Shown: positions 1 through 61,360 of the stretch, piece after piece
Layout of the letters: each line of letters starts with the position of its first letter
How positions within the stretch are numbered: the first letter of the stretch is position 1
From: Chiloscyllium plagiosum
Lineage: Eukaryota
Assembly (NCBI RefSeq): GCF_004010195.1
Contig: NC_057718.1
Coordinates: forward strand, 62,790,311 to 62,854,310
DNA: 64,000 nt
Direction of reading: 5' to 3'
Notes under the pieces: generated by a model
Databases searched by the model: none
What the model was told of the DNA's origin: nothing
Seen by the model: the letters and a program-made list of their open reading frames with translations, nothing else
Program-made: the position numbers and the translations under genes

Positions 1-2260
1 ACACTATTCCCACAGCTCTCTGTGGCAATAGGTTCCAAAGATTCTCAATCCTCAGAAAAAATTCTCTCTCATCAGTCTTAAATTGGTGCCTCTTTATTCG
101 GAGGCCATGCCCTCTGGTCCTAGACTCTCCTATGAGGGGGAACATCCCATCAGCATTTACCCTCTCAAGTCCCTTGAGAATCCTATACGGAGATCACCTT
201 CCACCTTCTAAACTCCAATGAGTAAAATCACAATCGGTTTAGCCTTTGCTCATTAGGCAATCCTTTCATTCCAGGGATCATCCTAGTGAACCTTCGCTGA
301 ACTGCCTCCAACATAATAATCTTTCCTTAATTAAGAGGACCAAAACTGCTTTCCATAAATGGTCTCACCAGCATCTTGTACAGTTGCAGAATGACTTTCC
401 TACTTTTGCACTACAACCCCTTTGAAATAAAAGTCAGCATTCCATCAGCCTTCTTGATTACTTGCTGCATCTATAGGCTAATACCACAAAGTCCTTTTTG
501 TGTTGCAGCATTCTGCAGTTTTTTCCATTTAAATAATATTCTGTTCTTTCATTGTCCCTTCCAAAATGTAGTGGAGGCACTTGACGAAGGAGCAGTGCTC
601 TGAAAGCTAGTGTTTTCAAATAAACCTGTTGGACTATAAACTGGTGGCGTGTGATTTTTGACCTCTTTCAAAATGAACAACTTCATATTTTGCCATCACC
701 CACCTTTCTGTCCACTTACTTGACCTATGAATCTCTCTCTGCAAAATGTTTCTATCCCTCTCACAACCTGTCTTTCCATCTATTTTTGTATCGTCTGCAC
801 ATCTGGCCACAGTACATTCACTTCCTTTCCCAAAGTCATCAACATATATTGTAACCAGTTATGGTCCCACCACAGATACCTATGGAATCCCACTGTTCAT
901 GGTTCACTAACCTGAAAAAGAATGCTTTATCTCCACTCACTGTCTCCTGCCATCAGCCACTTCCTTATTTATGCCAATATACTAATGCCAAGGGCTCTTA
1001 TCTTAGAACTGACTGTTTCAGAGGTACCTTGTTGAATCCACTCTCAAAGTCCAAATACAATATATCTATTGGTTCCCCGCTATCCGCCCTAGTTGAGACT
1101 TATTCAAGAAACTCCAAAATATTTGCCAGACACAATTTCTCTTTAATGAAGCCATGCTGACTCTGCTTAATTAGATTATGATTTTCCAAATATGCTGTTA
1201 CTTCTTTAATAATTAATTCCAATAGTTTTCCAACAATGTTAGGATAAGCAGCCTATAGTTACCCATTTTTTTGCCAACTCCCTTTTTGAATATGGGTATC
1301 ACATTAGCAGTTGTCTAAACCCTTGGCACTTTACCAGAATGCAAGGATTTTTGGAAAATCACAACCAATGCATTACTATCTCTGTGGATCCTCCTTTTAG
1401 GAATCCTAGGACGCAAGCCATCTGGGCCAGGAGACTTATTGCCTTGAGCCCCATTAGTTTGTCTAATACTTTTAGTGGTGGTGATGGTACTTAATTCCTA
1501 CCTGTATTCTTCATTGGATGTTTGAAGTTTCTTCCACTGTAAAGACTGATGATAATTGTCAGTTTAACTATTCAGCCATTTCCTCATTCCCCATCTCCCT
1601 AGGTTCATTCTCTAAGGGACATATGTTCACTTTGATCTCTCTCTTCTTTTTATATATTAGAAAAGCTCTTATGGTCAGTTTTTTATTCTTCACTAGTTTA
1701 ACCTCTTAGTTTATTTTCTCTCAATCTTTTTAGTGTTTCTTTGTTAGATTCTGAACTAATCCCAGTCTTCTGGGCTATGACTGAATTTTGCCTCCTCATA
1801 TGCTTTTTCATTCAACTTAAAACACTCCTTAACTTCCTTGGTTAGTCATGGTTAGTTTATCATTCTCCTCAGAATCATTCCTTCCTGGGATGTATTTTTG
1901 ATGATAGTCATGAATTACCTCCTGAAATGCCTAACATTGCTTGCTTACTGTCATTCTTGCTAATCTATCCACCATTTCACTTCAGCTGACGATATTCATT
2001 TCATTATAGTTCCAAGTTAAGCACAGTTTTTTTCCCCAACTCAAGTTTCTCTCTCTCAATCTGAATATTAAATTCTATACTATGATCACTACTTCCTTGG
2101 GGATTTTTTTACTGAGATAATTTATTAAACCTACCTCATTACCAGATCCAAGATAGCCTGCTCCTGGTTGACTCCATGACATATTGCTCTTGAAAAACTA
2201 TGAATTTATTGTTGTAGCTATTGCTTCCAATTTGATTAACTTAATCAGCATGAAGATTAA
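1..2260 (-). mobile_element. Decayed CR1-type LINE (ORF2 remnants), with a small PLE-end insertion at ~570-665
   Basis: Reverse strand resembles the CR1 copies at 11275 and 57737; many stops and frameshifts; ends approximate. Confidence 0.75.
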
Positions 2261-2522
2261 AATCACCAATAATTGTCTTTTTTTCAGATTTATAACTTTT
2301 CCTCAAAAATGATTACAGTTTGTTTGGTAGGAGTAGTTTGCAGACCTGCAATGTTTTTACTCCCTTGCTATCTTTTTTAAAACCTCTGCCCAAATGGACT
2401 TGACATCATTTAAGCCCAGATTGTCTCTCTCAAACGTCCTCATCTCATCTCTTCTTAATAGTGCTATCCCATCAACTTGCCCCCCCCCTCTCTGAACTGA
2501 GGATTGACACATAAGAAACCAA

Positions 2523-2888
2523 GGAGAAAGTGAGGACTGCAGATGCTGAAGATCAGAGTTGAAAGGTGTGGTGCTGGAAAAGCACAGCAGATCAGGCAGC
2601 ATCCAAGGAGAAGCAGAATCAACATTTCAGGCATAAGCCCTTCATCAGGAATCTTAGAACCCTTCCTGTTGAATGGCTTATGCACGAAATGTTGATTCTC
2701 CTGCTGCCTGACCTGCTGTACTTTTCCAGTGCCACACCTTTCAGCTACATTAGGGAGATTTAAACAATCCTTGGATGAACACATGGATGATGATGGGATA
2801 GTGTAGGGGACAAGCTGAGAATAGTTCACGGGTCGGTGCAACATCGAGGGCCGAAGGGCCTGTTCTGTGCTGTATTGTTCTATGTTCT
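2523..2888. mobile_element. Composite insertion: PLE-derived hairpin plus CR1/HER1 3' tail
   Basis: Inverted arms ~2557-2746; LINE tail ending gggccgaagggcctgttctgtgctgtattgttctatgttctat; flanked by ataagaaaccaa at 2511-2522 and 2889-2900. Confidence 0.75.
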
Positions 2889-2934
2889 ATAAGAAACCAA
2901 AGCTGATGAAGGGAACAGAAATTTATAAAAAGGT

Positions 2935-3160
2935 AAAAGTAAAGTCACCATAGTCTTACTAGACCATACAGGTGATCTTTCATTAGAGAGAGACTACTGG
3001 CTGTAGCTTAAGTAGACGGTCATCAGGTATCAAGTGTAGAAAGAAGTTAATTAGGAGGAACCTTCATGGTAATCTCAGTCAGTGCAGGAATTGAACCCAC
3101 ACTGCTGGCTTCACTCTATCATAAACCAGTTGTCCAGCCAAGTGAGCTAACTGACCCCCT
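2935..3160 (-). mobile_element. tRNA-derived SINE (same family as ~43720-43895 and ~60645-61055)
   Basis: B-box-like gggttcaattcc on the minus strand; shared tail tggtctrgtaagactat(g/a). Confidence 0.6.
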
Positions 3161-3618
3161 ATGCAATTTGTACAGCATGAGAAGGTACTAGGTGACAGAA
3201 TCATGATTGGCACAAGTTGCAGTAGGAACTGTTAATCCTTGTTCACTCAGACTAGTAACGTAGACCAAGAGCTGACAAGGGCCTATACAGACTATCAATC
3301 TTTGCTACACTCCCCAGGGTACTGCTTTAATCAAGCAGACAATCTACTAGACTAGTATGAGTTTGATCAACTAAGACTAGCAATTCCTGCTGTATCTCCA
3401 CGCTAATTATGGTCCAATTAGTCAGTACCCTCTTTTCATACCTCATAAAAATACATTATCTCTAAGTTTTACTTCTTGTGTATTCATTCCTGATGAATAG
3501 ATCCACAAAGATTCAACTTTGTTCTTATTTTAGCAATGTAAAAATACTATACAGTCAAGGATATTCTTATGGAGCAGTTAAGTTAAAGCATCTAAATATA
3601 TTTGTTGTGAAATCGAAC

Positions 3619-3713
3619 CTTTTCTCAGCCCGTACTTTCTTTCCACATTGGGAACAAGTGTACATATTATCACCTTCCAGAGTATCTTTGATTGTAACTT
3701 CATCAAGCGACTC
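3619..3713 (-). CDS. USP34: USP34 exon (last in window): ESLDEVTIKDTLEGDNMYTCSQCGKKVRAEK(R)
   Basis: 95 nt; tag acceptor, gttcga donor; CxxC of the USP fingers subdomain; the gene continues beyond position 1. Confidence 0.95.
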
Positions 3714-3729
3714 CTAGAAAGCGAAACAC

Positions 3730-4110
3730 ATATTTATAAAGCATCTTTCATAATTACCAGACATTTCAAAACACTTTATAACCAAAGTACTTTTTGAAGT
3801 GCATGCATACAGTGAACTACAATGCGATCATGACCAGATAATCTGTTCTTTTGTAATGCCAATTTGATGACACATATCAGCCAAAATAACTATGAAAACT
3901 TGTCTGCTCTTCTTGGAAATTATGCCGTGGAACTTTTTACACCTATCTGCCTTGGTTTAACATCTCATCAAAAGGTGGCACCTCTAACAGTGCAGCACTC
4001 TTTCCACAGTGAATTGTGTTAGCATCAATTGTGTGTGCAAACCCAAGAGTTGGATCTGAACCTGGAAGCCTGTGCCTCAGTGGCAAGAGTGCGACCAAGT
4101 GGGCCACAAT
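3730..4110 (-). mobile_element. Deu-domain SINE (SacSINE1/AmnSINE-like)
   Basis: Minus strand has a tRNA-like head and the core ggtgccaccttttgatgagatgttaaaccaagg, which resembles the Deu domain as I recall it. Confidence 0.65.
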
Positions 4111-4633
4111 AAAGTCAGAAAAATATATCAAAAACAAACGTTGTACTGTACAATTAAAAACATTGTCTACTGACTTCAAGATATTTTAAGCACGGATTAA
4201 CATTAGTAAGCACATTACAATTTTAATGTAATCACGGCATATTTTCTCTTCTGGTGAATAAAGTACCAATGTGATGAGAAAGGCACATAGTTCAGAACAC
4301 AATTTATTGTAAAAAGTCAATCCTTTTGACAAGAAACATCACTATGTGGATTTTAAAGGAGTCATTATTTCTCTGAATAAAATACCATGACATTTATTCA
4401 TGAATTTTTAAGTTTTTCAAAATAATAAAAGGGCTCTTACAACATTATTCAACATTATGTATGTTTTATTCTGAAAATATTAAACAAATGTGACATGCGA
4501 GGTTATGATGAGGAAGTTGAATTGTCTTGCAATGTTTCCACTTTAGCAGCCTTTGAAAATCATGTATCTTAATTTTATCTTTGTTAATTCAGATATTGCA
4601 CTATTTTACCTTACAAAATTAGACATAACTCAC

Positions 4634-4711
4634 ATAAATGTTTTTCATATCAGCCACTTGGCATCTAACTGTGTAGAACTCCTCAGCTGTCTGGCTGACA
4701 TGTTCGCAATC
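4634..4711 (-). CDS. USP34: USP34 exon: DCEHVSQTAEEFYTVRCQVADMKNIY
   Basis: 78 nt; cag acceptor, gtgagt donor. Confidence 0.95.
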
Positions 4712-4819
4712 CTGAATTTAAAGAAAAGTTACAACTTCAGTATTTATCATAGATAATTTATTTTCATAATGGAACTGCTTAATTAAACTTCTGAATGTTC
4801 AAAAATTAAGTACACTTAC

Positions 4820-4876
4820 CAATGACACCACGTTATTTGTTATAACCCCTCCAAATAAGCTTTTCACCGTGTCTTT
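4820..4876 (-). CDS. USP34: USP34 exon: KDTVKSLFGGVITNNVVSL
   Basis: 57 nt; tag acceptor, gtaagt donor. Confidence 0.95.
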
Positions 4877-4969
4877 CTAATATTAAAAAAAAGTTAAGAG
4901 GATACTTTTAGACAATGACACCCTCCCTTTATGGTATGAAACAACTACAAAAAGGTATTTCAAGTTTAC

Positions 4970-5116
4970 CAGTTCAGGGGACATTTCTTCAATTTTTGTA
5001 ATCAGGTCAGTGAAAAATTCAGTCATATCTTTCTGTTCTCCTGTGTTCAATGGTTGTTTGTCCATAGTATAGGTTTTGCAGAAAGGTCGTGGATTATATG
5101 CTTTGCGCTCACTTTC
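4970..5116 (-). CDS. USP34: USP34 exon: ESERKAYNPRPFCKTYTMDKQPLNTGEQKDMTEFFTDLITKIEEMSPEL
   Basis: 147 nt; tag acceptor, gtaaac donor; contains the USP QxD box (EQKDMTEF). Confidence 0.96.
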
Positions 5117-5279
5117 CTAAACAAGCAGATATTTCAAAAGAAATTGGTCATTTAGAATGTTAAATTCATTGCTGGTATCAATATCATTTTTTATTACAGA
5201 GAGTTAAAAACATTATAGCGTGGTCATAATGGGGGACTTTAATGATCTCAATGTAGATTGAGATAATGGTAGCAAAGAT

Positions 5280-5429
5280 TCTGGATTAGTGGTGCTGGAA
5301 AAGCACAGCAGTTCAGGCAGCATCTGAGGAGCAGTAAAATCTCCTCGGATGCTGCCTGATCTGCTGTGGTTTTCCAGCACCACTAATCCAGAATCTGGTT
5401 TCCAGCATCTGCAGTCATTGTTTTTACCC
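5280..5429. mobile_element. PLE-derived hairpin mini-element (hammerhead core deleted), inserted in a decayed CR1 (~5220-6410, +)
   Basis: Inverted arms; 15 bp TSD aatggtagcaaagat at 5265-5279 and 5430-5444. Confidence 0.8.
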
Positions 5430-6419
5430 AATGGTAGCAAAGATCAGAGTGGGACAAGCGCTCCTAAATAATGTTTGGATGAGTTTTCTACAGGAATGTT
5501 TGTAGTCCAATAAGAAAGAAGGCACAACTAAAGAAGGTTCTTGAGAATGAGGTGCATCAAGTAGATCAAATGTCAGTGAGGGAATATTTAAGTAAGGGTG
5601 ATTGTGATATTAAAGGCTTATGACAACTATTGGAAAGAATAATGAAATCAGTGAAAATTTCTTAATGGGAAGATCATGCTTCACAAAGTTGCTTGAGTTT
5701 ATTGGAGAAATAACAGAGGATTGAGTGTAATGCTGAATGTGACGTACATGGACTTTGAAATAGTTATTTAATACTGTACCATATAACAGACGTATGAGCA
5801 AAATTCAAAGCTTATCAAGTAAAAGGGACAGCAGCCATGTGGATACAAAAGAATGGCAGCATAAACCTGGGTGTATACACCCAGGTGTCCCAGCTATTAC
5901 ATATATACGAGCTGAGAGACCTGGGTGTATACGTATGTATGCAATTAAAGGTGACAGGTCAGGTGGAAAGTAGTATACAGAATTGAAGTATACAATATCC
6001 TAGGCTTTTTCTTAAAATAGGGCATACCGTACAAGATCAAGGAACTATGTTGAGCTTGTGACAGACACCAATTCGACTTGAGAGAGAGTACTGTCTATAT
6101 TTGAGGATGCCATATTTCTTAAGGAGGATGTGAACTAACTGGAAAACATGCAGAAGAGGCTTACAACAATAGTTCATCTGAGAAACTTAAGCTATGAAGA
6201 TACATTGAAGAAGTCAGGACTGGTTTCCACGTAGAAGAGAGGGCTAAGATGGCAGTTTTCAAAATCATAAGCAATTTGGACAGAGTAGATAGGGAAAAAC
6301 TAGTCCCACTCAAAAGGATCTAGAATGAAAGGTCATTGATTTAAAGTAATTTACAAAAGACCAATTGTAATGTAAGAAACAAAACTTCTTCCCATAGCGA
6401 GTTGTTATATGCTGTATAG

Positions 6420-7512
6420 AATCACCATATACACGGTAGGTAATCATATGACTCAGCCAATGTTGTCTATCTCAATGCTGCAGGCAAGGATGCCCTGAGG
6501 CAAGGTACACTGGGGAGACCAAGCAGATGCTACAACAATGGATGAATGGACACCATGCAACAATCGCCAGACAGAGATGTTCCCTCCCAGTTGGGGAACA
6601 CTTCAGCGGTCAGGAACATTCGGCCTCAGATCTTCGAGTGACCATCCTCCAAGGCGGACCTCAGTATCACACTAACGCAGAGTGACTGAGCAGAGGCTGA
6701 TAGCCAAGTTCGGTACTCATGGAGATGTCCTCAACTGGTACCTTGGGTTCATGTCACACTACAGGTGACCCCACTATACTATACACTCTACATACATACA
6801 CACACACGCTTACATACTCACACATTCACACAAACCCTTTCCCATACACACACTCTCTCAGACATACACTCCCACACACTCACCCTCTCACAGGCTTATA
6901 CTCTATCTCTCACACACACACTTCTACCAAGCACACAGACATGCAAACACATACTCCCTCACCCGCACGCTCTCACACACTCACTCTCTCTCTCTCTCTC
7001 TCTCTTTCCCTCACACAAACAAAAATCTGTGGTGAATTTGCATTTGCAGAATTGTATTTGTAGATATATTCTATTTTTGCTCAAAAGGCACACAACCTGA
7101 AGGCAGTCAATTCATATACCATTTTATAGATTCCTACTTTGGAAATAGAACCAGTCTGACTCAAGATTGGGATACAGACTCTAACCTCACACCTTTAATA
7201 CACTGTCTGAGCTGAGATGTCACTATTTTTAATAAAACCTTAAATTATCTCGAGACTGTGACTTGAAAGTAGTTCTGGGATTTACATATTAATGAATCAA
7301 AACCTGCAACCCATTCTAAAAGATGAAAGACTTAACAGCAATCTAGGTTTGTTCCATAGATCATTTAATTGCATGACACAGTGACCTTTTGTTCTAAATT
7401 GTGTCTTATTATCCTGCTCCACTAGTTACCTGATGAAAGAGCAGTGCTCTGAAAGCTAGTACTTCCAAATAAACCTGTTGGACTATAACATGGTGTTGTG
7501 TGATTTTTAACT
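6420..7512 (+). mobile_element. Penelope-like retroelement 3' part (GIY-YIG endonuclease remnant, CA-rich 3' UTR, terminal repeat with hammerhead)
   Basis: Decayed frame ...DSANVVYL...GETKQ...MNGH...LPVGEHF...EQRLIAKFGTH; hammerhead motif at 7424-7463 followed by AATAAA. Confidence 0.85.
7424..7463 (+). ncRNA. Minimal type I hammerhead ribozyme motif (PLE type)
   Basis: UAC-CUGAUGA-A-AGAGC(agu)GCUCU-GAA-AGCU-A-GUA: stem I UAC/GUA, 5 bp stem II, palindromic stem III AGCU, CUA cleavage triplet. Confidence 0.8.
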
Positions 7513-7859
7513 CTGAAGAATTACCAAGATGTGTGATGTTACATTGAAGAGCTTTTAAACGATTGTTTGAATAAAACATTTGGGTTTGAAGGGAAAAGGA
7601 TGAAGAATAGCTCAAGGTTACACGGTTTAAACAAACAGCTGGTGCAAACACACTGAGCTGAATGGGCTCCTCTTTCAATGTAGCAAGTCAGTGATTATAA
7701 CAAACTGAAATTTAAATTATTGAAAAATCTCAACAGATCAGACTCCAAGCATTTTGTTGTTTGCCATTTTAATTCTCCATCTTTCTCCGACTCTGATCCT
7801 ACTATCCTCAGTTACTTGCAGTACTTCAATGCACTTCAATAAATGCTTCATCTTTACAG

Positions 7860-8990
7860 ACAGGTTATACACTTTGGGAGGAAGAATAAAGGAGCTGTAT
7901 GTTATTTAAAAGGAAGAACAGGGATGGAATCCTCATGGAATCCCAAAAAGCTAGCATCCAATTTCAGCTGATAATAGGGAAGGTAAATGGAATGTTGACC
8001 TTTATTTCAAAGGGAGTAGAGTTTAAAACCTTGCATAATTTGCAAAAACTATACATGGCACTAGTCAGACCACAGCTGGAATATACTGTGAACAGTTTAG
8101 GGAGAAAGTGAGGTCTTCTCCTGAAGAAGGGCTTATGCCCGAAACGTCAATTCTCCTGTTCCCTGGATGCTGCCTGACCTGCTGCGCTTTTTCAGCAACA
8201 CATTTCCAGCTGTGAACAGTTTAGGGTGACTTATCCAAGAAAACAGATTCAGGCATTGGAAATAGTCCACAGTACGTTCACATTGCTGATATGAGGAAAG
8301 CAGGAACTGTCTGATGAGAAGAGGTTGAGTAGATTGGGCCTGTATTCATTGAAATATAGAAGACTGAAATATATGACCCCTTACTGAAACGAGCACTTGG
8401 CCATATCCCTTTAAACCCTTCCAATTCATATACCCATTCAGATGCCTTTTAAATGCTGCAATTGTAATGGTCTCCACCACATCCTCAGACAGCTCATTCC
8501 ATACATGAACCACCCCCTACGTGAAAATGTTGCCCCTTAGGTCTCTTTTATATCTTTTCCTTCTCACCTAAAACCTATGCCCTCCAGTTCCAGACTCCCC
8601 AACCCCAGGGAAAAGCCTTTGTCTATTTATCCTATCCATGCCCCTCATGATTATATAAACCTCTATAAAGTCAGCCATCAGCCTCCGATGCTCCAGGAAA
8701 AACAGTCCCAGCAGTTAGTAGTGTAATTTTCTTGAGGTTAGTACCAGACAGCATAGTCTTAGAATAAGGGGTTGTGCATTTAAGATAGAGATGAGGAGAA
8801 ATTTCTTCTCACTTAGGTCAATGAATCTGTGGAATTAATTTCCCTAGAGGTCTATCAAGCCTGTGTCATTAAATATATTCAAGACTGAGACAGACAGATT
8901 TTTATGGAAAAAACGTAGAAGAATTGAGTTGAGGATCAGATAGCCATGATCTCACTGAATGGCCAAGCAGACTCGATAGACTGAATGCAA
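7860..8990 (+). mobile_element. Decayed CR1 3' region, with a nested PLE mini-element (8103-8209) and a nested antisense younger CR1 3' fragment (~8395-8715)
   Basis: ORF 7899 has the CR1 motif LYMALVRPQLEY; 17 bp TSD ctgtgaacagtttaggg at 8086-8102 and 8210-8226. Confidence 0.75.
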
Positions 8991-9639
8991 GAAAGTGAGG
9001 ACTGCAAATACTGGAGATCTGGCCTATCACCATCACCCCCCACCTGCATCTTTTCCCCCCCCACCTGCATCTATCTATCAGCTACCTCCCCTCCACCCCA
9101 CTCTCCTATTTATCTGTCAACTGCCTTCCCCAACCTAACATTCCTAATGCCCAAAATGTCGACTCTCCTGTTCCTCAGCTGTTGTGCTTTTCCAATGCCA
9201 CACTTTTTGACTCGATAGGCTGAATGCCCTTGCATCTTCTGGTCTTATCTTTCAACTGGTCATTTATAAGCCCTGGACTCCAATACTAAAATCAACAACT
9301 TGAGGTCTTAAGCTCTGTTTTATTTCCTTCTTGTTTGAAGTTTTGATTATTTCTAAATGTTTCTCACTCTTTTTCCTTTTGGCCAGAATCTGTTCGTAGA
9401 AATTATCCACATATCAGGCAACATCTATGAAGGGAAACTCAGTTGATGATCACCGAAATGAATATTAATTCTATTCCTCTCCATTAATGTTTTCTGGTCT
9501 ACTAAGTATTTGCAGCATTTTCTGTTTTTATGACCCCTTAGACACTGTGTTTATTTGTTACCATACATTTTGGGCATACTTAGATCACAATCTCTCCTGT
9601 CTTTCACTCTATTAGAGAATGTCCCTTTCATATTTCTGG

Positions 9640-10140
9640 GAAAACGACATTCTGTCTTGCACTGAACAGGACAATTCACAGAAATGCCAAAGAGAAAACA
9701 TTTACACTGTATGAAAGCAGCGTTTTGATTGGTAGAGGCTTTTTCACGGAGGATGGATCAATTTATGATGACTGACAGTTAAACCAGGCAGATTGACTCT
9801 GATTTATCAAGGTATTGCCCTGAGAAATTAACCAGAGACTGTCACCTATTTTGAGTCGAGTTCAAACAGGTGCAATGTACATATTCTTTCTGCCTGCAAA
9901 GGATAAGGCCCTGTGCATTAATATTTGTAGCTTCCAGTATGCACAAGTGCCCTACACTGCAAGTCAGACTAAATGAGTTGTCAACACCTCAGAGTGTACT
10001 TGCTAACCGATTTATACTCTCCTCCTCTACAACATAAAGATTGTTTCTCTTTACTTTAATTCTTCTTGAAAGTTGTCCTGATGAGCGCAACATGAAAAGC
10101 TTTGACAAAATATCTTTTTTCAAAAATGCACAAATTCAAT
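9640..10140. mobile_element. ~500 bp non-coding element with inverted hammerhead-like ends (related copies at ~2490-3545 and ~25255-25620)
   Basis: Left end on the minus strand reads ttgtc-ctgttca-gtgcaagac; right end on the plus strand reads ttgtc-ctgatga-gcgcaacat-gaa-aagctt-t-gacaa. Confidence 0.6.
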
Positions 10141-10448: not shown

Positions 10449-10514
10449 CATGAGATACGTGAACATCTTTTGCAGTTCCAGTAGTGTTGTTTTATGCTTT
10501 ATGTCGTCTGAATA
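10449..10514 (-). CDS. USP34: USP34 exon: YSDDIKHKTTLLELQKMFTYLM
   Basis: 66 nt; tag acceptor, gtgagt donor; phase 0/0. Confidence 0.95.
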
Positions 10515-51707: not shown

Positions 51708-51834
51708 GTCCTGAAGAAGGGCTTATGCCCGAAACGTCGATTCTCCTGTTCCCTGGATGCTGCCTGACCTGCTGCGCTTTTCCAGCAACACATTTCCAGC
51801 TCTGATCTCCAGCATCTGCAGACCTCACTTTCTT
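51708..51834 (+). mobile_element. PLE mini-element with an intact hammerhead (51707-51742)
   Basis: TSD ca(t/c)gtttacattg at 51695-51707 and 51835-51847; GGUC-CUGAAGA-A-GGGC(uuau)GCCC-GAA-ACGU-C-GAUU. Confidence 0.85.
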
Positions 51835-52943
51835 CACGTTTACATTGTCCAAAGGAATAACCCTGACCATTACGTTGCTTGTCACTTAAATAAATTACTT
51901 TGATTCCATGGTAACATTTCTGTTCAGAGCCTGCTCCAGTGTTCCAATGAAGTGTAACACAAATTGGAAAATGACATCTTATTTTCTGCTTGGATCATTT
52001 AGTTTCTCAGCACTGAATTTGACAACTTCACACTATGACCTGTCCTTCATTTTTATTACATCCCACCTTCCTCTGGCTGTCTTGTTTGCCCCTTGCCTTT
52101 GCTTTCAGTAGCGTGGATGCATTTTCTCTTTTTCACAAATTAATTTATACCTAATTTATCTTTCTCTGCCCCCAGTTACCACAATTAACAGTCCCCTTAT
52201 ATTTCATTCTGGGCATTTTATAATTTGTTTTCACTCATTCCTCCTCCTCCTCTGTCAGCAGCATAAACATACCATTTTCCAGTCCCTTTTAGTTCTGAAG
52301 AAGAATCAGATCAGACACAAGTGTTAACTGTTCCTCTCTCCACAGATGTTGCCAAACCTGCTGTACTTCTCAAACACTTTATTTTTACTTTAAATTGGCT
52401 GTCATGTAATTGCTGGGATTATCCTTATGCCTTCTTTTGAACAAAGGTTGACTGCAATTCTCCAGTCTTCTGGATCAATTGTAACCCTACCTCTGAACCA
52501 GAAGGTCCACATTCAACTCCCACCAGCTCAATAGATGTCGTAACACAACTGAACAGGGTTGATTAAAAATAACTTCAATGATCACCGTAAGTGCTCCATT
52601 ACTGACATATGATCTACTTGGCCTAACTCAGTTCGAAGAACTAGGACCAGCAATACCTCCTTTCCCATCGGACTGAAAGGAACTGATGTGCAAAGTTCTT
52701 CTGAACATATTCTATGAATTCCTGCCCTTTATAATTTTAACACAGTACATATTCAGATAATTAAAGAAACCATTATAACTACTCTAAAATTCTTCTAGCT
52801 CTCCTCAATTTCCTTGCACATGTATTCCTCCACGTTTCCTTCTACTTGGTGCATAACAGAATAAACCAAACAATGAAAAGGTATTTCCAGTGATTCTTAA
52901 ATCTAGTTAAACAAATTCTATCCTTGACCCATCTATAACAGTA

Positions 52944-53154
52944 GTTGAGAGTGTGGTGCTGGAAAGCACAGCAGGTCAGGTAGCATCCGAGGAGCAGGAG
53001 GAATCAATGGTTTGGGCATAAGCCCTTCATTCCTGATGAAGGGCTAAAGCCTAAAACATCGATTCTCCTGCTCCTTGGATGCTGCCTGACCTGCTGTGCT
53101 TTTCCAGCACCACACTCAACTCTGATCTCAAGCAGCTGCAGTCCTCACTTTCTC
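52944..53154. mobile_element. PLE-derived hairpin mini-element
   Basis: Inverted arms centred at ~53031; imperfect TSD ccatc(t/c)a(t/c)aacagta. Confidence 0.8.
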
Positions 53155-55808
53155 CCATCCACAACAGTAATTGTAATTTAGACATTATTATACCCTGTTT
53201 ATCTCCAATCCCATATCTTACTATTTTCTAGACTGGTGTTATCTACCTCTTTGAACACCTTGGTGTTGTTCTCTAATATTGCCTCCTGGTTCCTCCACCC
53301 CTGGCAAGTTAGTTTAAAACCAACTCAATAGCACTAGCAAATCAGCCCATAAGGAAACGTGTCCCTGTTCTGTTAGGTACAACTCATCAAGCCTGTACAT
53401 GTCCCATCTTGTCCAAAACTACTCCCAATTTCAAAGAATCGAGAGACGAGCTTTCTCGCTACACATTCAGCAGCTCTATCCTCCAATTTGTATACTCACT
53501 TGCATGCATTACAGAGTGTCCTCACTTAAAGCTGTGATTTTCTGGAATGCAATCTTGATTTTAAGTGAAAAGACTAACTATAGCATTGATTACCACAAGA
53601 ATCACTGTCAAAACTGGAATTAAGATCTGTAGGCCTTCCTTCGCAGAGAAAAAAAATAACATTGTACCTACACACTAAGTTGTAATGCAGTGCTTTAAAT
53701 AACTACACTTCTAAATGAAATAATACGTAAAACAAAATAACTTGCTAAGAAAACTGGTATAAAAGAAAAGTGCAAGCTTTTATTCTCAACGCCACCTGTA
53801 GTGGACCCTCCAACTGTGAACTGGGGGGTGCTGGCGTTCATGCTGGGTGAGTTCTTAGCTCAGTGAGCTGCCTGCTGGGGTCAGCCCTTGGCTTAGTTGC
53901 AGTTGTCTTCTGAATAGGGTTGTCTTTGTGCACATGGGCATAGGTAAGAGGTACAGAGCATCCCTTCTTTCTGGCTGATACCATTTCAGGAATCTACCTG
54001 AGCCACTGCTTGATGAGGCTCTTCCTATGACTGACTGAAAATCCCGATGAAGTTCAGCAGCTCTCCTGCTTTGCTCTGTTGCCTATGGACTGAATTCTAC
54101 CACAATGGCAGTGCTATTTCAGCCACAACCTAAGGGGAAGATTGGCTTTAAAACTAGGCCTAGATCTTATTTAACTGTGCAACAGAAGTAACGAGTCTTT
54201 CACACTCAATTATAATATTTAACGGGTATGACACTACCCTACTTTGAATGCAGTATTTTGAAAGTAATGCATTTTTGTGCTAAGAAGAAAAGCTGAAATA
54301 ACTCCACAAAGGCTGGTATTTTCTCACCAAGCCATCTTTTATTTACATGCGCGTAATATATGACACTGACCCAGCTAGCTCAGAGCCAGCTCCGAGAGTG
54401 AACAAAGCCCCTGACACTCTTGTTTATATCTCTGTCAGTTAAAGTTCCCTAATTAAGACTGTTAGCCTGGGCCAATCTAGGAACTCATACCGTAGGAGGT
54501 ACACCTGCCTGACCTCGTTACAATCACTATATCCCTCCCTCTCAAAGTCCTATGATGTGGGCCCGTCCTTTTTCTTGTAGCTTCTCTGGAGGCTTTGTCG
54601 CACCAAATCTGTTCTTCCGACTCTGCCTGAATACTGTGGACCGTAGCCTGCCTCTTGCACTCTGAACATCTCGGCCGAAATTCATCTTCTTCAGGCGGTA
54701 ACAGCGATGTTGGGGCTGCAACATCTGCCGTGTCCATCGCGCCCTCACAGGTTTCTTCAAAACTAGGCGGAGGGGTAGAACCCATGGATTCTGACAGGCA
54801 GTCATTTTCTAATTGAAAAATGTTGAACCAATCAAGGTGAATCTTTCTCAACCAATTTTGCCCCATCAGAGTTGGGCCCGAGCCTTTTACCACAGTCAGT
54901 GGTAACTGAACCAGCTGCTTCTAGTAAGAGGCCAGAGGCAAACGTGTACTCTTAATTTGTAGGGGTTGTCCAGTATGGATTCTCAGCCTGGCCGAGATTG
55001 TACACAAACTCAAAGTTGGAGTCCAGAGCGAATTTTGTTAAAGACCAGTTCTGCAATCACTGATACAGTCGGACTGGTATCAACCTCCACAAGAACTGGG
55101 TGATCACTTAACCATTATTTTGATCGATTCGGATTTGGATTTTGCTGAGCAATTTAACTGTTCCAAACCAGCTGGAGGTAAACTTTCCAGCTTGTACACT
55201 CTCCTGGATACTGGCTTATGACTTCTCTTACTCAATTCAGATCAAGTGGGACTCTTCTGTTGTCTAAACTACAATTGCCTGCCAGCCCAGATCGTCAAGG
55301 AATTTTAACTGTTTAGCTGAGGCTTGGCTTAGTTTTGTGATTTTGCTATGGGCTGATCTGGAGTCCCTCTGTTCAGGATATGCCCTGAGTGAGGCTATGC
55401 AATTATCTTCACTCAAGTAATGCTCCCTAAGCTCAGTTAGTCTGGCAAGCGTGTCCACTTCAGTTGGAAGACCCTGTAACTCATAAGTTCCACTTGCCAC
55501 ATTTTCTAATGACAAAGCCAGCTGTAATGTCTGTTTCAAGTCCAGTAAAGCTTCAGCTAGTAGGCACTTTTGCATGGTCACATCATTAATCCCACTCTCG
55601 TTACCAGTGAAATAACTCCACATAAGGCTGGTATTCAGTCATCAAATCACCCTGTATTTATATGTGCACAATACATGACAATAACGCAGCTAGCTCAGAG
55701 CCAGTTCCTAGACTGAACAAAACTCCTGTCACTCTATTTATATCTGTTAGCCAGGGCTCCCTGAGTGGACCAGTTTAACAGCCCCAATCAGAGAACTCAC
55801 ATTCTATG

Positions 55809-56439
55809 AAAGCAACCACCCCAACACACACAAACGAAGTTGCATCAAGACACTATTCAAAAGGGCCACAACACACTGCAGCACACCAGAACTGCAAAAA
55901 GAGGAAGAGGAACACCTGTACAATGTATTCACCAAAAACGGATACCCGCGCAATTTCATCAACAGATGCCTAAGAGAAAGACAACGGAACGAGGACATGC
56001 CGCAACCCAAAGGACTAGCCACACTACCATACATCAAGAACATCTCTGAAATGCTATCCTTAGTAGCCACACACGTAGACGACAATCAACATGAATTTGA
56101 CTGGGACAACACTACCATTATAGGGCAAGCGAAACAAAGAACAGCCAGGGAATTCCTAGAAGCATGGCACTCATCCACAAACTCCATCAACAAACACATC
56201 GACCTGGACCCAATATACCGGCCACTACAGCGGACAGCTGAAACTGACAACCGGAAGCGGCAGGGACAGGCCACTATAAATGCCGGAGGAAACACCACAG
56301 AAGCGCTTCACAGGAGGCTCCCAAGCACTGAGGATGTCACCTCGACAGGGGACGAAACGTTTGCAACAAAAATTTCCAACTCGGCGAACAGAACCACAAC
56401 AACGAGCACCCGAGCTACAAATCTTCACCCAAACTTTGA
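55809..56439 (+). mobile_element. Penelope element fragment (RT thumb, partial GIY-YIG, hammerhead) nested in the LTR
   Basis: HPNTHKRSCIKTLFKRA...NGYPRNFI, LPYIKNISE and AREFLEAWHS; TSD tcacatt(c/t)tatg at 55797-55808 and 56440-56451. Confidence 0.88.
56325..56364 (+). ncRNA. Minimal hammerhead ribozyme motif (PLE 3' end)
   Basis: GCA-CUGAGGA-U-GUCaCCU(cgac)AGGgGAC-GAA-ACGU-U-UGC; GUU cleavage triplet. Confidence 0.8.
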
Positions 56440-57099
56440 TCACATTTTATGGAGGTCCACCTGGCTGACTTTGCTCCAATCACTACAAAAGCCAACTATC
56501 AAATGGAGGCAGGCAAGAGAACAAAGGTCATTTTGGCATTATTGGCAGCTGTCGATGAACATTGGCTGAGAGGGTTAAGACAAGTGATTGACATAGCAAA
56601 GACTGCCAACCTTCAAAATATAAATATGGGTGGGTGGGGAGAGAGGAAGACATAGGTCCAGGGAAAAGGAACATTAACTTCTTGGGAGAAGACCAAGAGC
56701 TTCTCCAACCAGCCCAAGGGAAGAACAAAGATTGCACAACGTCAGGGACTTCGACTACTTCAAAATCGGAGTCCCAACTGCTCCATCTTATAGGATTTTG
56801 TGATCAGTGAAATGCTTGCACCTGTCATGGTCATGAACTTTCTTTGTCTAATTGACTAAATGTATCATATCAAGGCTGTTGTTCTCTAACAAAATGCAAA
56901 AAAACAGAAAATTGCGACAAATGTTTGACTACCTATGATACAACTGTGATCATGAACCTCTAAAATCATATCACATCACAGGGAGAGAGTTTACACAAAA
57001 ATAATGTCAAACAAGTCAGATATGTAATGTACTGCACGAAACATTGCCACAGTGAATCTCATTATGCTCAACAAGATTTACAATTCTCATAGTTTGCTA

Positions 57100-57600
57100 A
57101 TGCTGAAGCCAAACCATGCCAAACGGGGGACTTTTAATTTGGATACCTTCTGCTGGGAGCAGTCGGGAAATTAATACCTTTGAGATCCTGCTAGCGAGTT
57201 TCCTCATTAGCTGCTTAACTCTGACCACTGGACCTTTATCTGTGTTTATGGTACCAATGTGGACAACAACACTAAATGTGCATCCTGACACTTTCACAAT
57301 GCTTTGCAATGTTGTCACTCAGTTATATCTTTGACCCTGGGACCAGGGAGGCACCAGATCATTGTTGATTCATATCTGCAACAGAGACACTTGTCTGTTC
57401 TCCTAACTATATAGTCCCCAATCATGACTGCTGTTCCAGTCTTCCACATGCTCCCCTATATAGCTGAACCAACCGTGGAGCCATGGACATAGGCTAATAC
57501 TCCATAGATGAACCATAATTTTCACCAGTATTCTCAACTGAACATTGATTGGCGTCAGATGCACAGGGGACTCTTGCATTATTTGTCACAATCTTTCTTG
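57100..57600 (-). mobile_element. CR1 ORF1 (SGNH esterase-like) remnant
   Basis: VVVHIGT...KVLISRLLP motif in ORF 57097..57318; similar pieces at ~48450-48620 and ~50150-50580. Confidence 0.6.
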
Positions 57601-57736
57601 TTCTTTCCAGTGGGGGATTGGAGATCAGTAAGGGAAAATTAACAAAGTTAGGAACAGCAGTTGGACAATCGATAAAAGTTGAAGGAGTGAAATTATTGTG
57701 AGGGAGTACAAAGGAACAAGGGATAGATCAAGTAGG

Positions 57737-59880
57737 CTGGGACTGCTTTAGTGTTAAGGGTTTAGATGGAGAGGAATTTGTTAAGTCTGTACAGGAAAAT
57801 TCTCTGATTCAGTATGTGGATGTACCTACGAGAGAAGGTGCAAAACTTGACCTACTCTTGGGGAATAAGCAAGACAGGTGGCTGAGGTGTCAGTGGGGGA
57901 GCACTTTGGGGCCAGCGACCATAATTCCATTAAATTTAAAATAGTGATGGAAAAGGGTAGACCAGATCTAAAAGTTGAAGTTCTAAATTGGAGAAAGGCT
58001 AATTTTGATGGTATTAGGCAAGAACTTTCAAAAGCTGACTGGGGGCAGATGTTTGCAGGTAAAGGGACGGCTAGAAAATGGCAAGCCTTTGGAAATGAGA
58101 TAATGAGAATCCGGAGAAAGTAAATTCCTGTTAGGGTGAAAGGAAAGGCTGGTAGGTATAGGGAATGCAGGATGACTGAAGATATTGAGGGTTTGGTGAA
58201 GAAAAAGAAGCAAGCATATGTCAGGTATAGACAGGATAGATTGAGTGAATCCTTAGAAGAGTATAAAGGCAGTAGGAGTATACTTAAGAGGGAAATCAGG
58301 AGGGCAAAAAGGGGACACGAGATAGCTTTGGCAAATAGAATTAAGGAGGATCCAAAAGGGTTTTACAAATACATTAAGATCAAAAGAGTAACTAGGGAGA
58401 GAATAGGACCTCTCAAAGATCAGCAAGGCGGGCTTTGTGTGGAGCTGCAGAAAATGGGGGAGATACTAAACGAGTATTTCACATCAATATTTACTGTGGA
58501 AAAGGATATGGAAGATATAGAACGTAGGGAAATAGATGGTGACACCTTGCCCAGATTACAGAGGAGAAAGTGCTGGATGTCTTGAAACGCATAAATCCCC
58601 AGGACCTGATCAGGTGTACCCGAGAACTCTGTGGGAAGCTAGAGAAGTGATTGTTGGGCCTCTTGCTGAGATACTTGCATCATCGATAGTCACAGGTGAA
58701 GTGCCGGAAGACTGGAGGTTGGCTAATGTGGTGCCACTGTTTAAGAAAGGTGGTAAGGACAAGCCAGGGAATTATAGATCAGTGACATCGGTGGTGGGCA
58801 AGTATTTGGAGGGAATCCTGAGGGATAGGATGTACATGTATTTGGAAAGGCAAGGACGGATTCGGGATAGCCAACATGGCTTTGTGCATGGGAAATCATG
58901 TCTCACAAACTTGATTGAGTTTTTTGAAGAAGTAACAAAGAGGATTAATGAGGGCAGAGTGATAGATGTGATCTATATGGGCTTCAGTAAGGCATTCGAC
59001 AAGGTTCTCCATGGGAGACTGATTAGCAAGGTTAGATCTCACGGAAACAGGGAGAACTAGCCATCTGGGGACAGAACTGACTCAAAAGGTAGAAGACAGA
59101 GGGTGGTGGTGGGAGGGTAGTTTTTCTGACTGGAGGCCTGTGACCAGTGGAGTGCCACAAGGATTGGTGCTGTGCCCTCTACTTTTTGTTATTTACATAA
59201 ATGACTTGGATGTCAGCAGGTAGATAGGATAGTGAAGAAGGCGTTTGGTATGCTTTCCTTTATTGGTCAGAGTATTGAGTACAGGAGTTGGGAGGTCATG
59301 TTGCGGCTGTACAGGACATTGGTTAGGCCACTGTTGGAATATTGCATGCAATTCTGGTCTCCTTCCTATCGGAAAGATGTTGTGAATCTTGAAAGGGTTC
59401 AGAAAAGTTTTACAAGGATGTTGCCAGGGTTGGAGGATTTGAGCTATAGGGAGAGGCTGAACAGGCTGGGGCTGTTTTCCCTGGAGTGTCGGAGGCTGAG
59501 GGGTGATCTTATAGAGATTTACAAAATTACGAGGGGCATGGATAGGATAAATAGATAAAATCTTTTCCCTGGGGTGGGGGAGTCCAGAACTAGAGGACAT
59601 AGGTTTAGGGTGAGTTGGGAAAGATATAAGAGAGACCTAAGGGGCAACTTTTTCACACAGAGGGTGGTACGTGTTTGGAATGAGCTGCCAGCGGACATGG
59701 AGGCGGCTGGTACAATTGCAACATTTAAGAGGCATTTGGATGGGTTAATGAATAGGAAGGGTTTGGAGGGATATGGGCCAGGTGCTGGCAAGTGGGACTA
59801 GACTGGGTTGGGATGTCTGGTTGGCATGGACGGGTTGGATCGAAGGGTCTGTTTCCATGCTGTACATCTCTATGACTCTA
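57737..59880 (+). mobile_element. 5'-truncated CR1-type LINE, same family as 11275-13730, with an internal deletion in RT
   Basis: ORFs 57878-59801 are closely similar to the first copy; the jump at ~59213 removes the RT catalytic (FADD) segment. Confidence 0.92.
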
Positions 59881-60174
59881 AGTGATGGAAAGGCACTTGA
59901 TTACTGGATACTCAACTCCATTTAGCAGTCAAATTTGTCAAAGCCCACACAAAGCTGACCTGCATAAAATTGAAAATGGAAGTAAAATTTAAGGGGGTTG
60001 GATTCATATTTGAGATTTTGAAAAACCATCCCTACCAACTCAAGCACACCTATTTCTGAGAGTTAAATTCACTCTCGACATCACTGATAAGACAATGAGC
60101 ACCAAAAGAATTAAATAATATGTAAGCATTTCATTATTGGTCAGCATCCTGCAAGTGATTAAAACAATTCTTAC

Positions 60175-60327
60175 TCTGACTGGCTTCAAAGCTTGGGCAT
60201 CAGGAAGAAACTTAAGTAACGTTGATGCAGCTAGTAAAAGGAAAGACCGATTTATCGATTCTCCACCATCCAAACCAGACAGGCACAACTTATATAATCC
60301 GTTGCAAGCTTCATGTCGAACTGAAGT
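60175..60327 (-). CDS. USP34: USP34 exon: TSVRHEACNGLYKLCLSGLDGG...AQALKPVR
   Basis: 153 nt; tag acceptor, gtaaga donor; phase 0/0. Confidence 0.95.
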
Positions 60328-60467
60328 CTAGAACAAAGAGAAGTCAATTATTGATAAAATACCTTACGTTTAATATTAAAGAAACTACCAGTTTATACAA
60401 GCAACTAGAAAAATCTATTACAACTAATAATTAGGTATTATAGCATATGTATGAGGTTTAGCCTTAC

Positions 60468-60592
60468 CTCTGGTACAAGAAGAGTTAATTTTTTCAACCA
60501 TTCATGTAGATGTTCACTGTCTGCAAGGCTGGATTTGACCAGTGAACAACAGTGAGCCCAACTCACTAATAGCCACATAGCATAATGAGTAA
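60468..60592 (-). CDS. USP34: USP34 exon: (V)THYAMWLLVSWAHCCSLVKSSLADSEHLHEWLKKLTLLVPE
   Basis: 125 nt; cag acceptor, gtaagg donor; lies within ORF 60438..60728. Confidence 0.95.
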
Positions 60593-60810
60593 CTGAAATG
60601 TGAAATAAGAAACTGGTTAATATGACAGACGTGCACTTCTTTATTATTGGGATTAAGTTAGCTCGATTGGCTGGATGGCTGGTTTGCAATGCAGAATGAT
60701 GCCAATAGAATGGGTTCAATTTCCACACCGATTGAAGTTACGAATTCGCTTTCTCAGCCTCTTCCCTCACCTGAGATGTGGTGACCACCACCAACTGTCT
60801 CTCTAATGAG

Positions 60811-61010
60811 AGCGGCACAGTGGTTCAGTGCTTAGCACTGCTGCCTCATAAGTGTCAGGGAGCAGAGTTAGATTTCAGCCTCAGGTGACTGTCTGTGTAC
60901 AGTTTACATGTTTTCCCCATATCCGCATGGGTTTCCACTGGGTGCTCCAGTTTCCTCCCACAGACATGCAGGTTAGGTGGACTGGCCATGCTAAATGTGG
61001 GATTACTGGA
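60811..61010 (+). mobile_element. Diverged HE1-type SINE nested in another SINE (~60645-61055)
   Basis: gcggcacagtggttcagtg head and V-domain tgctccagtttcctcccaca. Confidence 0.7.
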
Positions 61011-61184
61011 AACGGTAGGACTTCTGTGGTCTGGTAAGACTATAGCAACTTTGTCTTTAAATCACATTAGTGTTTTTTTTCTTTATATAACCAGTTATAA
61101 ACTTTGCTCAACCCCAGCTGACCGTTAAATGTCTCATTTGCAGTTAGTAAAATACAAATAATGCTGCATTAAAAAAAACAAAGA

Positions 61185-61360
61185 ACTGTAAATGTTGAAG
61201 ATCTCAAACAAAAACAGAAGTTGCTGGAGGAACCTAGCAGGTCTGGCAGCATCTGTGGAGAAAAAGCAGAGTTTAGGGTCACTAAACTTGAAATGTTAAC
61301 TCTGTTTTCTCTCCATAGATGCTGCAAGACCTACCGAATTCCTCAGGCAATTTCTGTTTT
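61185..61360. mobile_element. PLE-derived hairpin (gaaa(c/t)gttaact family; relatives at ~33920-34050, ~48850-48970, ~52290-52390)
   Basis: gcagcatctgtggagaaaaagcagagtt pairs with aactctgttttctctccatagatgctgc. Confidence 0.65.

What the first reader, a model, noticed from the sequence alone, without database searches (positions are those of the whole stretch)
570..61360. At least four families of minimal hammerhead ribozymes dispersed through one gene's introns
Seen: more than 15 copies of CUGANGA-N-[stem II]-GAA-[palindrome]-H. They fall into sequence-unrelated families: GGGC(uuau)GCCC/ACGU (8121, 22439, 35093, 51711), GGAGC(agu)GCUCC/AGCU (7430, 20510 minus, 26472 minus, 34104), GUCxCCU/ACGU (56328) and GU(gcaag)AC/AAGCUU (10078). 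Stem II covaries (AGAGC/GCUCU, GGAGU/ACUCC), and stem I pairs differently in different copies (UAC/GUA, CAC/GUG, ACCAC/GUGGU, GCA/UGC, UUGUC/GACAA). Established: PLE terminal repeats carry minimal type I hammerheads with a palindromic helix III, thought to cleave as dimers. Inference: this genome carries a very large, probably under-annotated population of ribozyme-bearing retroelements (roughly one motif per 3-4 kb here).
Basis: partly seen in the sequence, partly recalled or inferred. Interest (0 to 1): 0.72.

Follow-up and report, generated by a model that had tools for sequence, protein, structure and literature searches.

The report
Shark Penelope retroelement ends with hammerheads
The tiny self-cutting-RNA motifs scattered through the introns of this shark's USP34 gene are real, but they are mostly decayed end-pieces of Penelope-like jumping genes, a kind described in 2014, and the way the pieces start and stop likely records how these elements copy themselves.

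Summary
Seven motifs have the full core, stem II and palindrome (shuffles: mean 0.07, maximum 1). Twenty catalogued copies in four families keep a recognisable core, and a fifth, decayed family exists. All lie in introns of USP34, which runs on the minus strand of a shark-type genome. Only 1 of the 6 fully intact motifs is in the pre-mRNA sense. Families A, B and C sit directly downstream of Penelope-like-element (PLE) endonuclease remnants, and 11 of 26 insertions have 10-19 bp target-site duplications. These are the minimal PLE hammerheads of Cervera and De la Pena 2014, so a new member of a known kind. Most copies decay by uncompensated CpG transitions, and part of the claimed covariation is CpG decay or flanking DNA. 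Extras: 12 of 13 two-armed insertions pair one long with one short 3' end; 12 of 21 family A arms start at the ribozyme's 5' edge; two arms start at the predicted cut; family B RNA is polyadenylated 28 nt past the cut. This scan noted the same class before (284 notes in at least 27 genomes), with similar side points.

The parts
3618..62894 (-). Host gene USP34 (part); at least 14 coding exons in the window; all hammerhead copies are intronic
   Evidence: Exons 18556-18717 and 4634-4711 match human USP34 chain 7w3r_A (E 7.5e-19 and 4.1e-13); tblastn map with P0032 and P0038; splice-site scan
578..662 (+). Family B stub, C3->U, short 3' end
2523..2746 (.). Family A head-to-head pair; minus arm (C3 2648) long, plus arm (2666) short; both decayed
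5280..5429 (.). Family A head-to-head pair without a core; minus arm starts at N1.1, the base after the predicted cut (one shared base makes it N1.1 or N1.2); 15 bp target-site duplication
6428..7516 (+). 5'-truncated PLE of family B: GIY-YIG endonuclease remnant from 6452, CA-rich 3' region, intact hammerhead C3 7430 (predicted cut 7458/7459), short 3' end
   Evidence: tblastn, BLASTP E 1e-6 to P0010, motif, borderline 10 bp duplication with 1 mismatch
7468..7486 (+). Family B poly(A) signal AATAAA 7468-7473 and poly(A) site after 7486, followed by a GU-rich stretch; used by the family somewhere in the genome
   Evidence: 1,311 of 5,974 laid reads of RNA run X18 go on into A-runs here; depth in that orientation falls from 1,971 at 7461 to 373 at 7490, with no drop in the opposite orientation or in contig run X14
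8103..8209 (+). Family A stub: inverted end of the tail, then body from -2 to the short end; core intact, stem I pair lost; 17 bp duplication
8989..9208 (+). Family A stub with inverted tail, core deleted; 19 bp duplication
9640..9677 (-). Family D decayed copy holding the literal GTGCAAGAC stem II
10073..10108 (+). Family D copy: core, 5 bp stem I, AAGCUU palindrome, stem II not pairing; no PLE protein remnant found beside it
20428..22347 (.). One two-armed family B insertion: minus arm with intact hammerhead C3 20543 (sense to USP34, long end, AATAAA lost) interrupted by a SINE; plus arm with endonuclease remnant 21473-21907 and decayed hammerhead 22266 (short end)
   Evidence: 9 bp duplication
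22387..22528 (+). Family A stub: inverted 33-nt tail plus body with intact hammerhead C3 22439, short end; 14 bp duplication
24496..24706 (.). Family A fold-back centred on the core (C3 24581); 16 bp duplication
25257..25291 (-). Family D copy, G12->A
26392..27266 (.). Family B fold-back; minus arm with hammerhead C3 26505 (G12->A, 6 bp stem I, long end); plus arm stops about 74 nt upstream of the ribozyme
31793..32002 (.). Family A fold-back (C3 31887, minus strand); 13 bp duplication
34077..34183 (+). Family B stub: inverted end of the tail plus body (C3 34104, palindrome broken), short end; 10 bp exact duplication
35083..35219 (+). Family A single arm, core intact (C3 35093), one extra G between the 11 bp duplication and the element
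35303..35507 (.). Family B fold-back (C3 35388 decayed); 16 bp duplication
37987..38409 (-). 5'-truncated PLE of family A: endonuclease C-terminus, pyrimidine-rich 3' region, hammerhead C3 38111 (palindrome broken) and tail, all inside a 13 bp duplication
   Evidence: tblastn to P0010, P0012, P0013; duplication
51708..51834 (+). Family A single arm, intact hammerhead C3 51711 (predicted cut 51738/51739), one extra G at 51708, long end; 13 bp duplication with 1 mismatch
52291..52396 (+). Family E (fifth family, 3' block related to A): decayed core, stem I AGUU/AACU; further decayed copies near 9442, 33930, 48849
52948..53153 (.). Family A fold-back (C3 53033, G12->A)
55809..56439 (+). 5'-truncated PLE of family C: PF26215-like domain and endonuclease remnant 55805-56218, intact hammerhead C3 56328 (predicted cut 56361/56362); 12 bp duplication with 1 mismatch
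61185..61366 (.). Family E fold-back; minus arm starts at the predicted N1.1 and has the long end, plus arm the short end

Best explanation
These motifs are minimal type I hammerhead sequences in the terminal repeats of at least three families of endonuclease-bearing Penelope-like retrotransposons, likely inserted by target-primed reverse transcription and now mostly decaying without function in USP34 introns. Shown here: same-strand linkage to GIY-YIG remnants (families A, B, C), 10-19 bp target-site duplications, two fixed 3' ends about 30-35 nt apart, head-to-head pairs with one long and one short end, and CpG decay of the core. Inferred: the element's endonuclease nicks both strands with a 10-19 nt stagger; each nick primes reverse transcription at one of two internal start sites of the RNA; the two cDNAs are joined head to head (twin priming). 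The many 100-125 nt stubs are likely run-off copies of the RNA's uncut front end, which would begin just before the ribozyme. In the parent element the ribozyme would cut weakly, as a dimer through its palindrome or with help from the element's protein (published for other PLEs, untested here). The single intronic copies are unlikely to cut host RNA.
For: Endonuclease remnants upstream of 38111, 7430, 22266 and 56328; best protein hits are Chiloscyllium punctatum proteins at 84-87% identity carrying PF26215, and P0009 and P0010 show weak GIY-YIG hits. Duplications scoring 10 or more in 11 of 26 insertions against 2.7% of 150 random pairs. Long/short pairing in 12 of 13 two-armed insertions. 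The tail-only arms at 22422, 9019 and 34095 end at +92 or +93; for the two family A arms this is where the partner arm's 3' end lies. 12 of 21 family A arms and 4 of 10 family B arms start between -15 and +5 of C3. An extra G lies at the 5' junction in 2 of 2 single arms that start there and have a duplication, and in 0 of 3 that start inside the ORF. 18 of 42 CpG sites in the family A motif are changed, and none of the 9 palindrome changes is compensated. In fold-backs the predicted stem II pairing is about 0. Literature: PMC4209133, PMC11167929, PMC8557442, PMC3846280.
Against: No full-length PLE is in the window and no genome was held, so the clade names Neptune (A, B) and Poseidon (C) are recalled, not tested. 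Families D and E have no protein remnant here. The Pfam scan found no GIY-YIG hit in the window fragments themselves. 15 of 26 insertions had no duplication at the threshold. The 26505 fold-back breaks the long/short rule. Frangieh 2024 saw no strand difference in start sites, and Arkhipova 2013 explains head-to-head junctions by self-priming on an antisense template; three fold-back centres here show microhomology that fits that view. The extra-G count is 2 cases. Nothing was assayed for cleavage.
Confidence: 0.88

Rival explanations
1. Some intronic copies are active cis-ribozymes that affect USP34 pre-mRNA processing, or have been domesticated like the amniote intronic hammerheads.
For: 20543 (-) is in the pre-mRNA sense, has an intact core and its target fold is within 0.8 kcal/mol of the minimum-energy fold. 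Intact motifs are rarer in sense (1 of 7 against 5 of 14), which could reflect selection.
Against: That bias is not significant (Fisher p 0.61). Only 2 of its 7 stem I pairs are Watson-Crick, there is no helix III, and the nearest same-strand family B copy is 6 kb away across an exon and has G12->A. Published monomers of this type do not cut alone (PMC4209133, PMC11167929).
Confidence: 0.04
2. The short copies are autonomous-style non-LTR retrozymes or SINE-like units that spread through ribozyme-cut circular RNAs.
For: They are short, non-coding and very numerous; a preprint links animal retrozymes to PLE terminal repeats and found them in one chondrichthyan (10.64898/2026.07.22.740005, passages).
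Against: No head-to-tail array of these units is in the window; most copies begin before the core and so include the uncut site; their ends match two fixed sites 60-95 nt past the cut, not the cut itself.
Confidence: 0.05
3. The palindromic copies are MITE-like DNA transposons or microRNA precursors, and the hammerhead likeness is incidental.
For: Long hairpins give sub-threshold Rfam microRNA hits.
Against: Arms are unequal, duplications vary from 10 to 19 bp, the same sequence ends PLE ORF remnants, and all Rfam hits are far below their gathering scores.
Confidence: 0.03

Closest known systems
Minimal hammerheads (min-HHR) in pseudo-LTRs of metazoan PLEs (Cervera and De la Pena 2014, PMC4209133; read parts 1-2 of 4, searched supplement file 2, file 1 not searchable)
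   Same: Type I layout, bulged base between 9 and 10.1, G10.1-C11.1 pair, palindromic 15.2-16.2, several families per genome, mostly single motifs from truncated PLEs, some pairs on opposite strands.
   Different: Sharks are not named in the parts read or in supplement file 2; family A has only a 2 bp stem I; density here is high (6 intact in 64 kb) against about 4,000 (coelacanth) and 9,000 (Xenopus) per genome found with a stricter descriptor.
PAc, Poseidon PLE of Anolis carolinensis (Frangieh et al. 2024, PMC11167929; read parts 1-2 of 4)
   Same: Two internal reverse-transcription start sites downstream of the ribozyme that define a tail; both DNA strands cut and extended; no RNA reads beginning or ending at the cut (also none).
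   Different: That work does not report that the two arms of one insertion use different sites; poly(A) use in the repeat is not mentioned in the parts read.
Inverted pLTR and tail structures of PLEs (Arkhipova et al. 2013, PMC3846280; Craig et al. 2021, PMC8557442; passages)
   Same: Head-to-head inverted 5'-truncated copy, 30-40 bp tail on one end only, target-site duplications, palindromic junctions.
   Different: Here the structure is reduced to 100-230 bp stubs, duplications are longer (10-19 bp against 8-10 bp), and tail-only inverted arms occur.
Non-LTR retrozymes (Cervera and De la Pena 2020, PMC7229834, passages; Li et al. preprint 10.64898/2026.07.22.740005, part 1 of 5 and passages)
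   Same: Type I hammerheads in short repeated animal DNA.
   Different: Retrozymes are head-to-tail tandem units with mostly canonical hammerheads; these are dispersed, minimal and head to head.

Membership tests
Minimal type I hammerhead of metazoan PLEs | Core CUGANGA ... GAAA ... UH | tested here: met
   7 full motifs against shuffle mean 0.07; damaged in most other copies
Minimal type I hammerhead of metazoan PLEs | Unpaired base before stem II and G10.1-C11.1 pair | tested here: met
   Families A, B, C; family D lacks the extra base in the register used
Minimal type I hammerhead of metazoan PLEs | Palindrome in place of helix III | tested here: met
   ACGU (A, C), AGCU (B), AAGCUU (D)
Minimal type I hammerhead of metazoan PLEs | Short stem I closing the motif, with covariation | tested here: inconclusive
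   B: 3-6 bp with two-sided changes, 2 of 500 shuffles, but 7 related rows from 6 insertions; C 3 bp; D 3-5 bp; A only 2 bp
Minimal type I hammerhead of metazoan PLEs | Self-cleavage as dimer or with protein help | not testable with these tools
   No assay. Folding gives the dimer target no advantage over alternatives. No read-end pile-up at the cut, a weak test with 3'-end libraries
Endonuclease-bearing Penelope-like elements | C-terminal GIY-YIG endonuclease upstream of the terminal repeat | tested here: met
   Families A, B, C by tblastn and BLASTP to P0001, P0004, P0009-P0013; not found for D and E
Endonuclease-bearing Penelope-like elements | Telomerase-related PLE reverse transcriptase in one ORF with the endonuclease | tested here: inconclusive
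   Not present in the truncated window copies; homolog P0010 has weak RVT_1 and GIY-YIG hits; no tree built
Endonuclease-bearing Penelope-like elements | Inverted 5'-truncated copy and 30-40 bp tail at one end | tested here: met
   12 of 13 two-armed insertions
Endonuclease-bearing Penelope-like elements | Target-site duplication | tested here: met
   11 of 26 at score 10 or more, null 2.7%; further borderline cases
Endonuclease-bearing Penelope-like elements | Partial-tandem full-length copy with two direct pLTRs | not testable with these tools
   None in the window; no genome held
Non-LTR retrozymes | Head-to-tail tandem units each with a hammerhead | tested here: not met
   Self-comparison and profile searches show dispersed and head-to-head copies only
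Rfam hammerhead families | Match to a hammerhead covariance model | tested here: not met
   No hammerhead family among 13 matches up to E 1; expected for motifs lacking helix III

The most novel reading that the evidence does not exclude
The junctions of shark PLE stubs are a fossil record of the whole copying cycle: the template is the capped front end of the element's RNA (extra G, starts at -15 to -2 of the core); one RNA is primed twice at two fixed sites, giving obligate long/short head-to-head pairs; a minority of templates had been cut by the minimal ribozyme in the germ line (arms starting exactly at N1.1 at 5341 and 61280, perhaps 9450); and in family B a poly(A) site between ribozyme and start sites must be read through for copying. 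With some 10^5 copies this would make in-vivo cleavage by animal minimal hammerheads, not yet shown in the papers read, countable from DNA alone.
Probability: 0.35. Interest if true: 0.62.

Novelty: new member of a known kind. Interest (0 to 1): 0.3.

Why it matters
As a catalogue entry it is ordinary: PLE minimal hammerheads are known to be abundant in fish, coelacanth and frogs. Sharks seem not to have been described for them (no paper on shark PLE hammerheads came up; most subscription papers and Lunse et al., PMC5785218, are not held). The value is as a resource. What these ribozymes do and how PLEs make inverted, tailed insertions are open questions, and the very many short copies with clean target-site duplications allow both to be tested by counting junctions. 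The family B repeat also supplies a working poly(A) signal that could end host transcripts where it lies in sense.

Tried and rejected
Rfam: no hammerhead model matched; microRNA hits are hairpin artefacts below their thresholds. Pfam on 14 window ORFs: only three RVT_1 hits, from LINE fragments unrelated to the motifs. No whole genome was held, so no genome-wide count. Run search: no RNA holder listed for 27400-31000; reported only as a blank. Run X19 laid 0 reads, no test. No place where many molecules begin or end was listed, including the predicted cuts 7458/7459 and 8148/8149; 3'-end single-cell libraries would lose a 28-nt cut product, so this is weak. Joints 8148->8119 in run X14 could be tandem or inverted; their kind was not shown, so they were not used. 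Orientation bias of intact motifs was not significant. Dimer folding did not favour the double-hammerhead target; nearest-neighbour energies omit core contacts, so uninformative. The endonuclease fragment 32135-32460 is a separate insertion from the 31887 fold-back (duplication at 31780-31792 / 32003-32015) and was not counted as linkage; the remnant at 19557-19860 has no motif behind it. Left out of the long/short count: 579 (6-nt tail remnant, ambiguous) and 9450 (too decayed). Sequence look-up in earlier findings gave nothing. A search for 'twin priming' with 'Penelope' listed 3 papers, none about PLEs by title or abstract; a search for PLE polyadenylation listed none on this point, and PMC2377424 has no 'polyadenyl'. 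RNA coverage was examined for 7030-8260 only, so splicing and strand of the rest of the window rest on protein homology.

Full report
Observation. A descriptor scan (CUGANGA, optional bulge, stem II of at least 3 bp, GAA, palindrome starting with A, H) finds 7 motifs: 7430, 8121, 22439, 35093, 51711, 56328 on + and 20543 on -. In 200 dinucleotide shuffles the mean is 0.07 and the maximum 1. Without the palindrome the count is 16 against 2.6; CUGANGA alone is close to chance. Profile searches give 25 hits for family A (some are cross-hits to family E) and 8 for family B, three family D copies and a fifth family E. Of 20 catalogued copies, 6 have core, stem II, palindrome and a stem I of at least 2 bp. 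Rfam has no hammerhead match.

Setting. The genome is shark-like: the closest proteins to two retroelement fragments are Chiloscyllium punctatum entries at 84-87% identity. The host gene is USP34 on the minus strand, with exons from 62894 to 3618. Plus-strand motifs are therefore antisense to the pre-mRNA. Intact motifs are 5 of 14 antisense and 1 of 7 sense (7 includes the decayed D copy near 9662; Fisher p 0.61).

What they belong to. Three families lie directly downstream of PLE protein remnants on the same strand. Family A: 37987-38409 (-) holds an endonuclease C-terminus, a pyrimidine-rich stretch, the motif and the tail inside one 13 bp duplication. Family B: remnants at 6452 and 21473-21907 precede 7430 and 22266. 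Family C: 55805-56218 precedes 56328, inside a 12 bp duplication with one mismatch. The homologs carry PF26215, and P0009 and P0010 have weak GIY-YIG hits; the window fragments had no Pfam hit of their own. Clade names (Neptune-like for A and B, Poseidon-like for C) are recalled, not tested. Duplications of 10-19 bp scored 10 or more in 11 of 26 insertions, against 2.7% of 150 random position pairs. Families D and E are assigned to PLEs by motif only; E shares its 3' block with A.

Anatomy of the stubs. Each family has two 3' ends about 30-35 nt apart (A about +90 and +124 from C3; B about +80 and +112). In 13 insertions with two head-to-head arms, 12 have one long and one short end (2650, 5341, 8119, 9145, 22437, 24581, 31887, 53033, 34104, 35388, 20543/22266, 61250); independent coin flips would give 0.5^12. 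The exception is 26505, whose second arm stops 74 nt before the ribozyme; 579 and 9450 could not be scored. In four cases the inverted arm is only the tail or part of it, and at 22422 and 9019 it runs down to +92/+93, where the partner's 3' end lies. That is the layout expected if one RNA is primed twice (twin priming as known for L1; recalled). The 5' ends cluster: 12 of 21 family A arms and 4 of 10 family B arms start between -15 and +5 of C3 (with two script values corrected by eye at 22437 and 31885). At 51708 and 35083 a single G lies between the duplication and the element; the three arms that start inside the ORF have none. The cap reading of this G came from earlier notes of this scan and I checked it only on these five junctions. 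Two arms begin at the base after the predicted cut, 5341 (-) and 61280 (-), and a third old one may (9450); a rough binomial gives p 0.05 for 2 of 6 and 0.01 for 3 of 8, chosen after the fact.

State of the ribozymes. In 14 family A arms, 18 of 42 CpG sites in the motif are changed: 4 at C11.1-G12, 9 in the palindrome, 5 at the cut; none of the palindrome changes is compensated (read). In fold-backs the long hairpin removes stem II (pairing probability about 0). Family B shows two-sided changes in 5 of 9 pairs (2 of 500 shuffles, slid controls at most 1). The stem I changes follow subfamilies and look real. The stem II changes can arise from CpG decay, and two of the 7 rows are arms of one insertion.

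RNA. Reads of run X18 were laid on 7030-8260 at 80% likeness, so they come from family members genome-wide. Of 5,974 reads, 799 and 512 continue into A-runs at 7488 and 7485, one site after 7486 in two sequence variants. It is 13 nt past AATAAA (7468-7473), 28 nt past the predicted cut, and followed by a GU-rich stretch. Depth in that orientation falls from 1,971 at 7461 to 373 at 7490, while the opposite orientation (281 to 336) and contig run X14 do not fall. Depth of 1,116 at 7438 shows many such molecules span the cut site uncut. Family A reads are nearly symmetric between strands (709 and 853). No begin or end pile-up was listed. Whether the poly(A) reads come from elements or from a few host 3' UTRs is not known, and X19 laid nothing. 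In X14, 79,729 contig records were laid (a LINE fragment in the stretch included); summed depths of 7-10 million over the motifs against tens in unique bins suggest the order of 10^5 copies, but the tool warns this is no copy number.

Mechanism. Shown: PLE linkage, duplications, two ends, long/short pairing, decay, poly(A) use. Inferred: staggered double nicking, priming at two internal sites, head-to-head joining, and run-off at an uncut RNA front end. From papers: single metazoan minimal hammerheads did not cut in vitro and dimers cut weakly (PMC4209133); the Anolis PLE ribozyme cut only with the element's protein and was not needed for insertion in vitro (PMC11167929). The rival for the junctions is self-priming on an antisense template (PMC3846280); microhomology at the centres of 24581, 31887 and 53033 fits either view.

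Comparison and novelty. The motif, its place in PLE terminal repeats, its mass dispersal, the inverted copy and the one-sided tail are all published (PMC4209133, PMC8557442, PMC3846280, review PMC6765202). I found no paper on shark PLE hammerheads; supplement file 1 of PMC4209133, bioRxiv supplements and Lunse et al. (PMC5785218) could not be seen and may list them. This scan has 284 notes with the same key words in at least 27 genomes, including cap, cut-site and poly(A) points; they are unchecked notes, not independent support. Verdict: real, a new member of a known kind, interest 0.3; the junction record is the part worth a genome-wide test.

Noticed in passing
window 26505 (-) and 35379 (-): Two family B arms lie in the USP34 sense with AATAAA intact, so they are possible intronic poly(A) sites; the third sense arm (20543) has lost the hexamer.
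   Followed up: no
window 26392-27266: Large fold-back whose second arm ends at a 9-nt match to the left flank, upstream of the ribozyme; may be priming by microhomology.
   Followed up: partly
window 22348-22542: A young family A stub inserted about 25 bp past the end of a family B insertion; an E copy (33930) and a B copy (34104) are also adjacent.
   Followed up: no
window 8119-8209, 22437-22528, 51709-51800: Family A copies 22437 and 51709 are identical over 92 nt and 8119 is 97% identical: a young subfamily.
   Followed up: no
window 19557-19860 (+) and 32135-32460 (-): Two more PLE endonuclease remnants without an adjacent hammerhead.
   Followed up: partly
window 11334-12811, 39157-39804, 57733-59881 and others: LINE reverse-transcriptase fragments (RVT_1 hits; CR1-like by recall) and several SINE copies fill much of the introns.
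   Followed up: no
window 5873-5932: A 60 bp imperfect palindrome unrelated to families A-E.
   Followed up: no
window 3076-3156 (-): tRNA-like sequence below the Rfam threshold (26.5 bits), probably a SINE head.
   Followed up: no
run X14 on window 8119-8148: Contigs join 8148 (predicted cut base) to 8119 (motif start) with 4-6 letters between; tandem or inverted could not be told.
   Followed up: no
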